Source: a virus
Reading direction: 5' to 3' (one strand)
DNA length: 64,000 nucleotides
IMG/VR virus record: IMGVR_UViG_3300006793_000021
Coordinates: 1-64,000 of that record
The notes under the pieces were generated by a model. That model saw only the letters and a list, made by a program, of their open reading frames with translations, had not been told where the DNA came from and did not search any database. Each line of letters begins with the position of its first letter. The first letter of the stretch is position 1. Made by a program: the position numbers and the translations under genes. This document shows, in pieces, positions 14,046-16,067 of this stretch.

Positions 14046-15062
14046 ATGAAACGGACTATAGTTATTCTGTCTGCTCTTTTCGCTTTGATATCATTTCAAG
14101 CATTTGCAGACACAAAGACCCTCGAAGAAAGAGTTGCTGATTTAGAAAAGTCAGCACCAACGTTACCAACAGGAATGTTTGTTAACGGAAACATTGAAGT
14201 ATATTACGATTCAGATACTTATGATTCAGATTTTGATACACGAGCAGAAGTGTTTGTAGGACTACAATCTCAATTAGACGGCCCTATTGATTGGGCAGGC
14301 GCAAGTACTAGATTTGACTCTCATTATTCTTTAGATACAACATTAAACAATAGCATTGTTGAAAAACAAATTGGCGTTGGTTTAGGAAATACTAGACTTT
14401 ATGTAGGCGAAACAGATGCACAAAGACTAGGATTTGCTAAAACAGCTAAAATTGGTTTACCACTTATTATTACAGAATCTAATAGTAGAATTGACCATAA
14501 AGAAAAACTTGTACTAACATTTGGCGGATGGGAAAATAATAACGAATTTGATTTTGATGAGCATAGACTAAGCAGAGATTTACCAATTGGATTTACTGTA
14601 GGTTATGATGCAGAAGCAAGTACAGTATACTTAGGTGGTACTGTAAGTTTAGCAGGATTTGCAGAACTATCATATATGCAAATTGGTAATAAAAACAATA
14701 TTACTGACAACGAACTAAATCAACAAGGTGTTGCTGTAGGTTCACAAGTATTACGTAGATACGGCATTCCAGTAGGATTTGGTGTTGAAGTATGGGACGA
14801 TAAGAATACAGGATTAGCAAAAGATGATCGTGTTGACCTTGGTCTTATGTACAACTATTCTAAAGAAACAATGTTTACTGCACATAGAGTATTAAACGAT
14901 GACTTAGGAACTGACGGTACATATCTTGGTGTAGTACATACAGTAGGACCAGTAGAAACAGGTTTCTATTATCATACAGATGTTAAAAATACAAGTGTAT
15001 GGACAGGTGCAACAACTGAGAGTGACGATAGTATTAAAGCTACTCTTAAGTACAAGTTTTAA
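14046..15062 (+). CDS. Outer-membrane porin-like beta-barrel protein
   Basis: Sec signal peptide (MKRTIVILSALFALISFQAFA), short coiled coil LEERVADLEK, alternating amphipathic strands, C-terminal LKYKF (BAM beta-signal). Confidence 0.8.
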   Translation: MKRTIVILSALFALISFQAFADTKTLEERVADLEKSAPTLPTGMFVNGNIEVYYDSDTYDSDFDTRAEVFVGLQSQLDGPIDWAGASTRFDSHYSLDTTLNNSIVEKQIGVGLGNTRLYVGETDAQRLGFAKTAKIGLPLIITESNSRIDHKEKLVLTFGGWENNNEFDFDEHRLSRDLPIGFTVGYDAEASTVYLGGTVSLAGFAELSYMQIGNKNNITDNELNQQGVAVGSQVLRRYGIPVGFGVEVWDDKNTGLAKDDRVDLGLMYNYSKETMFTAHRVLNDDLGTDGTYLGVVHTVGPVETGFYYHTDVKNTSVWTGATTESDDSIKATLKYKF

Positions 15063-15068: not shown

Positions 15069-15074
15069 ATATTA

Positions 15075-15115
15075 CGTTCAGCCAATAGGCCGGGAGTAGC
15101 ACAAGCGAAGGAACG
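15075..15115 (+). ncRNA. glnA-motif (glutamine-I) riboswitch aptamer
   Basis: CGUUC-A-GCC-aaua-GGC-CGGGAGUA-GC-acaa-GC-GAAG-GAACG: P1 CGUUC/GAACG, P2 hairpin, E-loop AGUA/GAA, P3. Matches the glnA three-way junction architecture. Confidence 0.75.
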
Positions 15116-15142
15116 CACTTAACCTTTAACAAGGAGAGTGTT

Positions 15143-15241
15143 ATGGATAATTACACGCTTTGGTGCTTTCAACGAATCATTAAACAGCACCATATAAAAA
15201 AAGTTAACTTTTTATTAAAAAAGAGGTTGACTTCTGCTTAA
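15143..15241 (+). CDS. 32-aa basic peptide downstream of the riboswitch
   Basis: AAGGAG SD, then MDNYTLWCFQRIIKQHHIKKVNFLLKKRLTSA*. Below the ORF-track cutoff. Confidence 0.5.
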   Translation: MDNYTLWCFQRIIKQHHIKKVNFLLKKRLTSA

Positions 15242-15255
15242 TAGTTTGTTATATT
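15227..15255 (+). promoter_or_regulatory. Sigma70-type promoter
   Basis: TTGACT, 17-nt spacer, TATATT with an extended -10 TG. Confidence 0.75.
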
Positions 15256-15261
15256 AAGTAC

Positions 15262-15504
15262 ATAAGTTAGACGACGGTGTAACTTAGATAGTGCAAGGAA
15301 GAGGAGTTACAGGCTCCGAACTTGACTAGTAGCTGTAGTGGCATTGCGTGACTGTGGAGACACAGAGACGTATTTCCGAACGTAACTGTTTGGTGCGAGG
15401 TTTGCGGGAACGACAGACAGACTGTTAACCGCATTGTTGGTATTCTGAAGTCCAACCTATCACTTTTATTAAAAGCTCGATACTTAATTGTGTCGGGCTT
15501 TTTT
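15262..15504 (+). ncRNA. Unidentified structured ncRNA (~240 nt)
   Basis: Bounded by a sigma70 promoter and a terminator; no sense ORF in the track; GC-richer than its flanks; several hairpins including a GNRA loop. Confidence 0.7.
15471..15504 (+). terminator. Rho-independent terminator (possibly bidirectional)
   Basis: AAAAGCTCGATAC-ttaatt-GTGTCGGGCTTTTTT. Confidence 0.85.
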
Positions 15505-15511
15505 CTTTTAT

Positions 15512-15519
15512 GATAAATA
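15512..15519 (+). promoter_or_regulatory. Late promoter variant GATAAATA
   Basis: Directly after the terminator and ahead of a structural operon. Confidence 0.65.
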
Positions 15520-15530
15520 CATATGTCAAA

Positions 15531-15598
15531 TAGTGTGCCGCAAGGCGGACTTATGCTGTTTAACCCACAGCGTAGCTCATAGAACGGGCATAGGACTA
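15531..15598 (+). promoter_or_regulatory. Structured 5' leader RNA
   Basis: GCC-GCAA-GGC, UAUGCUGU/ACAGCGUA and GCUC/GGGC stems, closed by UAGU/ACUA. Confidence 0.55.
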
Positions 15599-15617
15599 CT
15601 TAAATAGGAGAAAACAA

Positions 15618-16067
15618 ATGGGAAGACCACTTAATAAAAGATTATTCGGAACACCAACAGCTAATGGTTCTGAAGTTAAAGTAAACTTTCATAACGGCAC
15701 AGCAGTTAAAGAAGGTTATATCGTAAAGCAAAAAGGCTCAAAGAAATTTGTATGTGAAGAAATTGAAACAGCAGGCGAATTTACTTGTGTACTAACAACT
15801 GGTAAATTACCAGCGGCACTAGCGGCAGGCGAAATGTCAATTTCATTCAAAATGGATGATGCAGAAACATACACAGTAAGTAAAATTGCTGGACGTAAAG
15901 CAACATTATCAGCACCAAGTGCAACAGGTACTAACTTATATGACGGCAACAGTGTTGCTTGGAACTTTAGTACATCTGTAGCAGATGGAGCGGCACAAGT
16001 TGAAGAAGCAGGTGATGATAACACATTAACTGGTACTGATGACGACGACTTTACAGAAGACGCATAA
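15618..16067 (+). CDS. Putative virion structural protein
   Basis: 149 aa, strong SD, first gene after a late promoter. Confidence 0.6.
   Translation: MGRPLNKRLFGTPTANGSEVKVNFHNGTAVKEGYIVKQKGSKKFVCEEIETAGEFTCVLTTGKLPAALAAGEMSISFKMDDAETYTVSKIAGRKATLSAPSATGTNLYDGNSVAWNFSTSVADGAAQVEEAGDDNTLTGTDDDDFTEDA

What the first reader, a model, noticed from the sequence alone, without database searches (positions are those of the whole stretch)
15227..15504. Stand-alone ~240-nt structured ncRNA with its own sigma70 promoter and terminator
Seen: a promoter-to-terminator unit with no sense ORF. Stems include UAAGUUA/UAACUUA; UAGU-g-CAAG/CUUG-ACUA enclosing GGAGU/GCUCC with a purine-rich internal loop; CUGUG-GAGA-CACAG; UGCGG/CCGCA enclosing ACAG/CUGU; GUUGG/CCAAC; and a possible long-range GAUAG/CUAUC. 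I cannot match it to tRNA, tmRNA, RNase P, SRP or 6S. Inferred: an early-expressed phage RNA of unknown class (protein decoy, anti-defence RNA, sRNA or ribozyme) inside a late region.
Basis: partly seen in the sequence, partly recalled or inferred. Interest (0 to 1): 0.8.

Follow-up and report, generated by a model that had tools for sequence, protein, structure and literature searches.

The report
Free-standing manA-family RNA gene in phage
The flagged stretch is a real, self-contained gene for a folded RNA of about 245 bases in an uncultured marine phage, but it is a divergent copy of the already catalogued "manA" RNA, whose role in nature is still unknown, and not a new kind of RNA.

Summary
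Window 15227-15508 is a promoter-to-terminator unit with no conserved ORF, and its folded RNA is strongly supported: 78 distinct homologs, 95% of cells paired against 38-44% in slid controls, and 52 of 65 pairs with double changes.

The interpretation "unknown class" does not hold. The RNA matches the whole Rfam manA model (RF01745) at 40.8 bits, E 1e-10. That is below the 55.2 cut-off, but homologs at the same site pass it.

This copy is a gene of its own rather than a gene leader:
- A sigma70-type promoter is present in 71 of 77 homologs.
- 49 of 77 have terminators, with unrelated sequences.
- There is no anti-terminator signal.
- A tRNA-Gly sits in the same cassette in relatives.
- A close relative has the unit deleted.
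- One metatranscriptome holds a 216-nt contig over exactly this RNA.

Two loop-loop contacts covary. By my inferred helix numbering they are the kissing loops that a 2026 cryo-EM preprint reports as holding manA RNAs together in pentamer-based cages in vitro.

Earlier agents of this scan reported the same kind of free-standing manA gene on other phage DNA. Biological function remains unknown.

The parts
15227..15255 (+). Sigma70-type promoter: -35 TTGACT (15227-15232), 17-nt spacer, extended -10 TG-n-TATATT (15247-15255). The predicted start is about 15262.
   Evidence: 10 of 12 matches, TG present. The GGTTGAC and TGnTA columns are invariant in 20 of 20 aligned homologs. The promoter pattern is found in 71 of 77 distinct homologs, 62 of them with TG.
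15262..15466 (+). manA-family RNA core, nine helices. My model R1 matches 15262-15464; Rfam RF01745 matches 15264-15466.
   Evidence: 40.8 bits, model positions 1-192 of 192; the only R1 hit in the window; covariation.
15263..15286 (+). P1, the 5' hairpin (15263-15269 with 15280-15286; inner pairs 15271-15272 with 15277-15278).
   Evidence: helices 1-2: all 9 pairs show changes on both sides.
15287..15291 (+). P2 5' strand GAUAG. It pairs with CUAUC at 15457-15461 and closes the multi-helix core.
   Evidence: Rfam alignment. In one search, helix 3, 4 of 5 pairs never vary, so covariation neither supports nor contradicts this helix.
15294..15324 (+). P3: CAAG/CUUG (15294-15297 with 15321-15324) enclosing GGAGUU/GGCUCC (15303-15308 with 15312-15317) across a purine-rich internal loop.
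   Evidence: helix 4 is invariant; in helix 5 all 6 pairs show double changes.
15326..15399 (+). Three-way junction. P4 is 15326-15331 with 15394-15399. P5 is 15332-15333 with 15341-15342. P6 is 15345-15349 with 15368-15372 and 15352-15356 with 15361-15365, with a GAGA tetraloop at 15357-15360. P7 is 15376-15381 with 15388-15393.
   Evidence: helices 6, 7, 9 and 10 (23 of 24 pairs with double changes). A GNRA tetraloop is present at this place in 60 of 78 homologs.
15337..15339 (+). L5 loop bases AGU, complementary to ACU at 15385-15387 in the L7 loop: a loop-loop (kissing) contact.
   Evidence: The first pair is A-U in 24, G-C in 22, U-A in 11 and G-U in 12 of 79 sequences; the other two pairs are G-C in 75 of 79 and U-A in 72 of 79.
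15403..15433 (+). P8: UGCGG/CCGCA (15403-15407 with 15429-15433) enclosing ACAG/CUGU (15413-15416 with 15422-15425). The L8 loop CAGA lies at 15418-15421.
   Evidence: helices 11-13 (9 of 9 pairs with double changes).
15436..15456 (+). P9: GUUGG/CCAAC (15436-15440 with 15452-15456). Its 11-nt loop holds UCUG (15444-15447), complementary to the L8 loop CAGA.
   Evidence: helix 14; each RNA's own L8 and L9 loops give a mean Watson-Crick run of 3.96 against 2.96 for swapped partners, and 0 of 2000 permutations reach the observed mean.
15471..15508 (+). Intrinsic terminator (13-pair stem 15471-15502, then a T run).
   Evidence: A terminator lies within 30 nt of the RNA's end in 49 of 77 homologs, with 42 different sequences. 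No anti-terminator complementarity was found.

Best explanation
Window 15227-15508 is a free-standing gene for a divergent member of the manA RNA family (Rfam RF01745).

Shown:
- Host-type RNA polymerase would start at about 15262, exactly at the first helix, from a near-consensus extended -10 promoter.
- The RNA folds into nine covarying helices.
- An unconditional-looking intrinsic terminator follows about 6 nt after the last helix, giving an RNA of about 245 nt with no ORF and no downstream gene that depends on it.
- The unit behaves as an accessory RNA-gene cassette. In relatives, the same promoter/terminator cassette at the same site carries manA plus tRNA-Gly, or tRNA-Gly alone. In one close relative the unit is deleted, leaving only the RNA's last 8 bases.

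Inferred:
- The RNA acts as an RNA in its own right rather than as a switch for a neighbouring gene.
- It most likely works by assembling with copies of itself.
- Two loop-loop contacts, L5-L7 (15337-15339 with 15385-15387) and L8-L9 (15418-15421 with 15444-15447), covary across the family.
- By my numbering of the helices, these are the two intermolecular kissing loops that a 2026 cryo-EM preprint reports as building the manA pentamer and the 60-subunit cage in vitro.

Not known: what such an assembly would do in an infected cell.
For: Identity:
- Full-length match to RF01745 at 40.8 bits, E 4.8e-9 on 701 nt and 1.2e-10 on the 75-kb record.
- My model R1, built from the window's clade, also hits sequences that pass Rfam's cut-off: L021, L046, L047 and L104, L125, L126, L136. 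It hits Pelagibacter phage Mosig as well.

Structure:
- 25 homologs from loci found through the two flanking proteins: 95.8% of cells paired against 32.5-44.5% in slid controls, 39 of 62 pairs with double changes, 0 of 500 shuffles as high.
- 78 distinct homologs: 95.0% against 38.0-43.6%, 52 of 65 pairs with double changes, 0 of 500 shuffles.

Stand-alone gene:
- Promoter in 71 of 77 homologs and terminator in 49 of 77, with 42 different terminator sequences.
- For 37 distinct terminator arms, complementarity to the RNA's 3' part is no better than for shuffled arms (mean z -0.18; 0 of 37 below -2).
- The downstream 149-aa gene keeps its own freshwater-2 leader in 20 of 20 loci scanned. It also keeps it in L002, where the unit is deleted.
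- Cassette series: promoter-manA-terminator (window); promoter-manA-7 nt-tRNA-Gly-terminator (L123, L112); promoter-tRNA-Gly-terminator (L072).
- In cyanophage S-CREM1 a canonical manA (96.6 bits) lies between tRNA-Leu and tRNA-Asn with 1 nt or less on either side.

Transcript: in RNA run X6 a 216-nt contig of word depth 120 covers 15263-15475 with 6 differences, while the only listed X6 contig on the upstream 338-aa gene has depth 2.9. This is one run, and a contig cannot prove ends or strand.

Self-assembly:
- Loop-loop covariation.
- GNRA tetraloop on the sixth helix in 60 of 78 homologs.
- The preprint 10.64898/2026.07.01.735769, sections 7, 8 and 13 read, reports manA decamers, octamers and a 60-mer built from pentamers held by L5-L7' and L8-L9' kissing loops.
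Against: - The window copy scores below Rfam's gathering cut-off (40.8 against 55.2). Only 7 of 36 loci holding this subfamily pass it.
- 28 of 77 homologs have no terminator within 30 nt. Several run into genes: gp32-like SSB, rubrerythrin, a peroxiredoxin-like protein and Hsp20 (I named all but Mosig's annotated genes by eye from their N-termini). Among canonical manA copies, only 13 of 63 have a terminator. A leader or riboswitch role in those copies is therefore not excluded and could be the family's primary role.
- Covariation cannot tell an intramolecular loop-loop contact from an intermolecular one.
- The mapping of my helices onto the preprint's L5, L7, L8 and L9 is inferred from helix order and from the GNRA loop on the sixth helix. 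I could not see the preprint's figures or supplements.
- The preprint is in vitro only (refolding with 10 mM MgCl2; the phrase 'in vivo' occurs 0 times) and is not peer reviewed.
- The transcript evidence is one contig from one run.
Confidence: 0.55

Rival explanations
1. It is a monomeric trans-acting RNA. It is a manA-class fold released as a free early RNA that binds a small molecule or a host or phage protein (a sponge or decoy) without self-assembly, and the covarying loop-loop contacts are intramolecular tertiary contacts.
For: The evidence that it is a stand-alone gene applies equally here. The junction and internal-loop sequences are highly conserved: AUAGUGCAAGGAA, AACUUG and UCCnACCUAU are invariant or nearly so, as expected for a binding pocket. 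Covariation of the loops is equally compatible with contacts within one molecule.
Against: Cryo-EM of five manA RNAs in the preprint shows the kissing loops between molecules. No ligand or protein partner is known.
Confidence: 0.2
2. It is a transcription-attenuating riboswitch. The manA fold is an aptamer and the terminator at 15471-15502 is its expression platform, controlling early read-through into the 149-aa gene at 15618.
For: Rfam and Weinberg et al. 2010 file manA as a cis-regulatory riboswitch candidate (passages). The terminator starts only about 6 nt after the fold. Other family members sit directly before genes, for example 24 nt before rubrerythrin in Mosig, where the ribosome-binding region AUAGG resembles one strand of helix P2. 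In canonical copies 50 of 63 lack a terminator.
Against: No anti-terminator complementarity was found in 37 distinct terminators. The terminator hairpins are strong (-5.0 to -19.7 kcal/mol) compared with the best alternative duplexes (-2.8 to -11.4). The downstream gene has its own late-type promoter box and its own leader RNA and keeps them when the unit is deleted. A tRNA-Gly replaces or follows manA in the same cassette.
Confidence: 0.15
3. The unit encodes the antisense 62-aa ORF (15267-15455, - strand), and the RNA structure is incidental.
For: The ORF exists and is open in the three closest relatives.
Against: Only 16 of 78 distinct homologs are stop-free for 60 aa or more on the antisense strand. 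Substitutions are compensatory in helices. The promoter and terminator point the other way.
Confidence: 0.01

Closest known systems
manA RNA motif (Rfam RF01745; Weinberg et al. 2010, PMC2864571, passages read)
   Same: It aligns to the model end to end and has the same nine-helix layout. This includes the closing helix, the three-way junction with a GNRA-capped arm, and the two 3' hairpins. It is found in marine phages, and homologs at the same site pass the family cut-off.
   Different: It scores below the cut-off (40.8 against 55.2). It has a different conserved core wording (AUAGUGCAAGGAA here, GGGAGUGACUGAAUAA in the Rfam consensus). The phage has a head protein about 70% identical to those of giant phages rather than being a T4-like cyanophage. 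It is bounded by its own terminator instead of leading a gene.
[quoted passage not shown]
   Same: Complementary L5-L7 and L8-L9 loops and a GNRA loop on the sixth helix are present here and covary across 78 homologs. These are the contacts reported for the manA_A0F1 pentamer and 60-mer.
   Different: Nothing about assembly was tested for this sequence. The loop numbering is my inference. The preprint's RNAs are other family members studied in vitro.
Canonical manA in cyanophage S-CREM1 (OP535465; PMC9964418, passages read)
   Same: It is the same family, and it also stands as an RNA gene among RNA genes: it lies between tRNA-Leu and tRNA-Asn, near the wcaG and abiF RNAs.
   Different: It scores 96.6 bits. 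It has no terminator of its own and would be released by tRNA processing (inferred) rather than by termination.
Small stable RNAs C and D in the phage T4 tRNA gene cluster
   Same: They are phage-encoded stable RNAs of unknown function made alongside tRNAs.
   Different: There is no known sequence or structural relationship. This is named only as an analogy.
Riboswitch-terminated transcripts that act in trans, such as Listeria SreA (recalled, not checked)
   Same: They consist of an aptamer-like fold followed by a terminator, giving a short free RNA.
   Different: There the terminator is ligand-controlled and a downstream gene is regulated. Here no alternative pairing was found.

Membership tests
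manA RNA (Rfam RF01745) | Score at or above Rfam's gathering cut-off (55.2 bits) | tested here: not met
   The window copy scores 40.8 bits. This is an operational threshold. Homologs at the same site that my model R1 links to the window copy pass it: L021 61.1, L046 58.6, L047 57.9; L126 61.9, L104 57.9, L136 57.5, L125 55.9. That is 7 of 36 loci holding this subfamily.
manA RNA (Rfam RF01745) | Significant full-length alignment to the family model | tested here: met
   Model positions 1-192 of 192; E 4.8e-9 (701 nt searched) and 1.2e-10 (75-kb record). No match in 14 control genomes.
manA RNA (Rfam RF01745) | The family's helices are present and maintained by compensatory change | tested here: met
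   95.0% of cells paired and 52 of 65 pairs with double changes in 78 distinct homologs; slid controls give 38-44%.
manA RNA (Rfam RF01745) | Position in the 5' untranslated region of a gene (Rfam type 'Cis-reg') | tested here: not met
   A terminator follows at 15471-15502, with no anti-terminator signal. The next gene has its own leader and keeps it when the unit is deleted. This concerns context, not the fold. 28 of 77 subfamily members do lack a terminator.
manA RNA (Rfam RF01745) | Occurrence in marine phages | tested here: met
   The window is an IMG/VR virus record. Homologs occur in 55 of 99 related viral loci, in 76 of 80 further viral loci, and in Pelagibacter phage Mosig.
Self-assembling manA RNAs (2026 preprint) | Complementary L5-L7 and L8-L9 loops | tested here: met
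   AGU/ACU and CAGA/UCUG in the window; covariation. The numbering of the loops is inferred.
Self-assembling manA RNAs (2026 preprint) | Formation of pentamer-based oligomers or cages | not testable with these tools
   This needs native gels, SEC or cryo-EM of this RNA.
Riboswitch | Expression platform with mutually exclusive pairings | tested here: not met
   37 distinct terminator arms against the RNA's last 80 nt: mean z -0.18, none below -2.
Riboswitch | Specific ligand binding | not testable with these tools
   No ligand for manA was named in the papers I could search.

The most novel reading that the evidence does not exclude
manA RNAs are not gene switches at all. They are free-standing phage RNA genes whose products build RNA-only multimers or cages in infected cells. 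On this reading, the many different but always matching L5-L7 and L8-L9 loop sequences (at least eight distinct L8-L9 pairs; three Watson-Crick types at one L5-L7 position) are lineage-specific assembly codes. These codes would keep each phage's RNA assembling only with itself.
Probability: 0.3. Interest if true: 0.8.

Novelty: new member of a known kind. Interest (0 to 1): 0.4.

Why it matters
manA has been an unexplained riboswitch candidate since 2010, and a 2026 preprint shows that it can build RNA-only cages in the test tube. This locus and its relatives bear on that in three ways:
- Many natural copies are complete genes with their own promoter and terminator.
- These copies can be exchanged with a tRNA gene within the same cassette.
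- The loop contacts reported to hold the cages together have been maintained by compensatory change in nature.

Together these points argue that assembly, or at least the loop contacts, matters biologically. They also suggest that the catalogue label 'cis-regulatory' is incomplete.

There is a practical point too. Rfam's cut-off misses most of this subfamily (7 of 36 loci pass), so it goes unannotated in marine phage genomes. The copy in the isolate phage Mosig is one example.

Tried and rejected
- tRNA or tmRNA: ARAGORN finds none in the window.
- Rfam at gathering thresholds does not report this RNA. It reports only the glutamine riboswitch and freshwater-2. The other sub-threshold Rfam matches (VrrA, NsiR1, trpB, BsrF, Thr leader) only reflect the terminator and have E of 0.75 or more.
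- blastn against 50,697 phage records. The whole intergenic region matched only the glutamine-riboswitch part in four Melnitz phages. A homolog that passes Rfam matched only phage Mosig. The S-CREM1 manA matched only itself.
- The MAFFT-only consensus fold misaligned the variable stems and recovered 30 pairs. I replaced it with a covariance-model alignment.
- PHROGs and Pfam give no family for the flanking 338-aa and 149-aa proteins.
- Antisense ORF: rejected.
- Anti-terminator: no signal.
- tRNA adjacency is not general. In canonical manA loci a tRNA lies within 300 nt in only 7 of 65. In this subfamily it is directly adjacent in 2 of 79.
- RNA runs X2, X4 and X5 gave no cover over 15292-15465. 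As contigs, these holes prove nothing. X2 has a 151-nt contig of depth 2.6 across the promoter (15125-15275), which may be DNA or read-through.
- Literature. One search was wasted because 'manA' matched 'management'. 'freshwater-2' found no relevant paper. I found no paper describing manA as a terminator-bounded gene or in pelagiphage-like or giant phages. The Melnitz paper has 0 occurrences of manA. The pelagimyophage paper reports finding no riboswitches with Riboswitch Scanner.
The additional files of Weinberg 2010 and the supplements of the 2026 preprint may list contexts, sequences and helix numbering that bear on these claims.

Full report
**What is there**

The finding lies in a 555-nt gap between a 338-aa ORF (14046-15062) and a 149-aa ORF (15618-16067), both on the + strand.

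At Rfam's own thresholds the gap holds a glutamine riboswitch (15073-15119, 42.3 bits) and a freshwater-2 RNA (15534-15620, 67.9 bits) that runs into the start codon of the 149-aa gene.

Between these two RNAs lies the flagged unit:
- a promoter, TTGACT-17 nt-TATATT with an upstream TG (15227-15255);
- a 13-pair terminator (15471-15502) followed by a T run.

There is no + strand ORF of 30 aa or more inside the unit and no tRNA or tmRNA in the window. The + strand folds better than shuffled sequence (z -3.6), and better than the - strand does (z -2.2).

**What it is**

A sensitive Rfam scan aligns 15264-15466 to the whole manA RNA model (RF01745, positions 1-192) at 40.8 bits. The E-value is 4.8e-9 for the 701 nt searched and 1.2e-10 for the 75-kb virus record. 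The score is below the family's 55.2-bit cut-off.

I collected relatives through the two flanking proteins: 98 viral loci. Counting the window's own locus L001, 55 of 99 loci hold a homolog of the RNA, giving 25 distinct sequences.

I scanned 20 of these loci with Rfam. Sixteen of them carry the RNA, and in three it passes the manA cut-off at the same site: L021 61.1, L046 58.6, L047 57.9 bits. In a second set of 20 loci that all carry it, four pass.

The window copy is therefore a divergent member of a known family, in a subfamily that Rfam's threshold mostly misses (7 of 36 pass).

**Structure**

I built a covariance model (R1) from the window and its three closest relatives, using the manA-derived structure.

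R1 finds one copy in the window and 24 more in 61 related loci. It finds 76 in 80 further viral loci that I fetched with a conserved-motif pattern. It also finds one in the isolate Pelagibacter phage Mosig.

| Set | Cells forming standard pairs | Slid controls | Pairs with changes on both sides | Shuffles reaching observed values |
|---|---|---|---|---|
| 25 sequences from loci found through the flanking proteins | 95.8% | 32.5-44.5% | 39 of 62 | 0 of 500 |
| 78 distinct sequences | 95.0% | 38.0-43.6% | 52 of 65 | 0 of 500 |

These alignments were fitted to the model, which favours the structure. The slid controls and the number of pair types argue that the signal is real. Compensatory changes are also visible in the plain MAFFT alignment of the four closest relatives.

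Two helices, AUAG/CUAU and CAAG/CUUG, never vary, so covariation says nothing about them.

The antisense 62-aa ORF is not conserved: only 16 of 78 homologs are stop-free for 60 aa or more.

**A gene of its own**

- *Promoter.* It is present in 71 of 77 distinct homologs with enough flank, 62 of them with the TG extension. It ends 5-17 nt before the first helix.
- *Terminator.* One follows within 30 nt in 49 of 77 homologs, with 42 different sequences. For 37 distinct terminator arms, complementarity to the RNA's last 80 nt is no better than for shuffled arms (mean z -0.18; none below -2). I see no expression platform.
- *Downstream gene.* It carries its own freshwater-2 leader in 20 of 20 loci scanned, preceded here by GATAAATA (15512-15519). 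That box resembles the T4-type late promoter quoted in the Melnitz paper.
- *Deletion in a relative.* In L002, whose upstream protein is 93% identical, the gap is 162 nt. The upstream gene's stop codon is followed directly by CCTATCAC, the last 8 bases of the RNA, then the same terminator and leader. This is a clean deletion of the riboswitch, small ORF, promoter and RNA.
- *The same cassette with other RNA payloads.* L123 and L112 have promoter, manA, 7 nt, tRNA-Gly, terminator, late box and freshwater-2. L072 has promoter, tRNA-Gly, terminator, late box and freshwater-2.
- *Cyanophage S-CREM1.* A canonical manA (96.6 bits) lies between tRNA-Leu and tRNA-Asn with 1 nt or less on either side.

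**Evidence pointing the other way**

28 of 77 subfamily members lack a terminator. Several of these lead into genes: gp32-like SSB, rubrerythrin, a peroxiredoxin-like protein and Hsp20. Apart from Mosig's annotated genes, I named these by eye from their N-termini.

Among canonical manA loci, only 13 of 63 have a terminator and only 7 of 65 have a tRNA within 300 nt. A leader role in those copies is therefore not excluded.

**Transcript**

All available RNA runs are kept as contigs, which cannot prove ends, strand or level.

In run X6 a 216-nt contig of word depth 120 covers 15263-15475 with 6 differences. The only listed X6 contig on the upstream gene has depth 2.9. This fits an abundant discrete RNA, but it is one run.

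**How it may work**

Earlier notes of this scan pointed me to a July 2026 preprint, which I then found and read: abstract and sections 7, 8 and 13.

It reports cryo-EM structures of five manA RNAs as octamers, decamers and a 60-subunit icosahedral cage. All are built from pentamers. In the cage-former, the pentamers are held by the intermolecular kissing loops L5-L7' and L8-L9'. In another RNA they are held by L5-L7', L3-L8' and a GNRA loop L6 docking on P6'.

The work is in vitro and says nothing about function in cells.

Counting helices 5' to 3' in my model, the only GNRA loop (GAGA, 15357-15360) is on the sixth helix. That fits the preprint's L6, so I map L5, L7, L8 and L9 accordingly. This mapping is an inference, because I could not see the figures.

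Before reading the preprint I had found that the L5 and L7 loops are complementary (AGU at 15337-15339 with ACU at 15385-15387) and that the first pair covaries: A-U 24, G-C 22, U-A 11, G-U 12 of 79.

After reading it I tested L8 against L9. The window has CAGA (15418-15421) and UCUG (15444-15447). Relatives have GAGA/UCUC, AUGA/UCAU, AGGAU/AUCCU, AAUGAU/AUCAUU, CUGAU/AUCAG, AUGGAAU/AUUCCAU and GGUA/UACC.

Across 50 distinct loop classes, the mean Watson-Crick run with the RNA's own partner loop is 3.96, against 2.96 with swapped partners. None of 2000 permutations reaches the observed mean. Relatedness among the classes inflates this test somewhat.

Covariation shows that the contacts are selected in nature. 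It cannot say whether they form within one molecule or between molecules.

**The phage**

The window is part of a 75,320-base IMG/VR record that CheckV rates 21% complete. Its head protein is about 70% identical to those of giant phages such as Vibrio phage 2.275.O and PA5oct.

Yet a homolog of the RNA from a related locus (L046) is 75% identical to one in the 141-kb Pelagibacter phage Mosig. The glutamine riboswitch is 81% identical to one in Methylophilales phage Melnitz. This suggests that these RNA cassettes move between marine phage lineages.

**Verdict**

- The claim of an unknown class is not.
- This is a new, sub-threshold member of the known manA family, arranged as a free-standing gene.
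- Earlier agents of this scan reached the same reading for look-alike units behind the capsid gene of other uncultured giant phages.
- What this window adds is the cassette series with tRNA-Gly, the deletion variant, and covariation of the two loop-loop contacts.

Noticed in passing
window 15073-15241: A glutamine riboswitch (RF01739, 42.3 bits) is followed by a 32-aa basic ORF (15143-15241) whose 3' end overlaps the manA promoter's -35 box. In the loci fetched, ORFs after this riboswitch fall mainly into three conserved small basic peptide families of 28-33, 50 and 63-65 aa. The family includes one in phage Melnitz.
   Followed up: partly
window 15512-15620: A freshwater-2 RNA (RF02980, 67.9 bits) forms the leader of the 149-aa gene and includes its ribosome-binding site and ATG. 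It is preceded by a T4-late-promoter-like GATAAATA box. The motif is present in 20 of 20 related loci scanned, so it looks like the leader of a conserved, highly transcribed late gene.
   Followed up: partly
L002:4015-4075 (also L079, and L008 with a 155-nt gap): This is a natural deletion variant. The stop codon of the 338-aa gene is followed directly by the last 8 bases of the manA RNA and its terminator. The riboswitch, small ORF, promoter and RNA are gone.
   Followed up: yes
L123:4120-4500, L112, L072:2740-2900: The same promoter/terminator cassette upstream of the freshwater-2 leader carries manA plus tRNA-Gly (L123, L112) or tRNA-Gly alone (L072).
   Followed up: yes
L028:2480-2890 (and L034): At the same site there is a promoter, a very short ORF, a terminator and then three tRNA genes (Trp, Gln, Cys) in place of manA. 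The glutamine riboswitch and its small ORF are kept.
   Followed up: partly
L100:2460-2740 (Pelagibacter phage Mosig MT647606, 108168-108374): This is an unannotated manA homolog (R1 62.1 bits) with a TTGACA/TGTATATT promoter and no terminator, 24 nt before a rubrerythrin gene. The ribosome-binding region AUAGG repeats one strand of helix P2 and could compete for its partner. In L140 a peroxiredoxin-like gene 28 nt downstream has CAAGGAA, repeating a strand of P3. These are only two cases.
   Followed up: partly
L222:1246-2144 (Synechococcus phage S-CREM1): A run of RNA genes without ORFs: wcaG, tRNA-Met, tRNA-Leu, manA, tRNA-Asn, abiF, tRNA-Gly. manA abuts the tRNAs on both sides.
   Followed up: partly
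L101:2086-2573 (Methylophilales phage Melnitz-1): The record's 'SsrA' tmRNA feature overlaps the stretch that is 81% identical to the window's glutamine riboswitch. L155 carries an alphaproteobacterial-type permuted tmRNA about 1.7 kb from its manA copy.
   Followed up: no
L109-L179 and L229-L299 (several loci): Many manA copies without a terminator lie upstream of a gp32-like single-strand-binding protein gene, in both subfamilies, with a TATAAATA box in the linker.
   Followed up: no
window 15499 (run X6, record 27): An RNA-run contig over the late box and freshwater-2 leader continues upstream into a different terminator sequence, the one seen in L027/L033/L113. Relatives with other cassette versions are therefore present in the same sample.
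   Followed up: no
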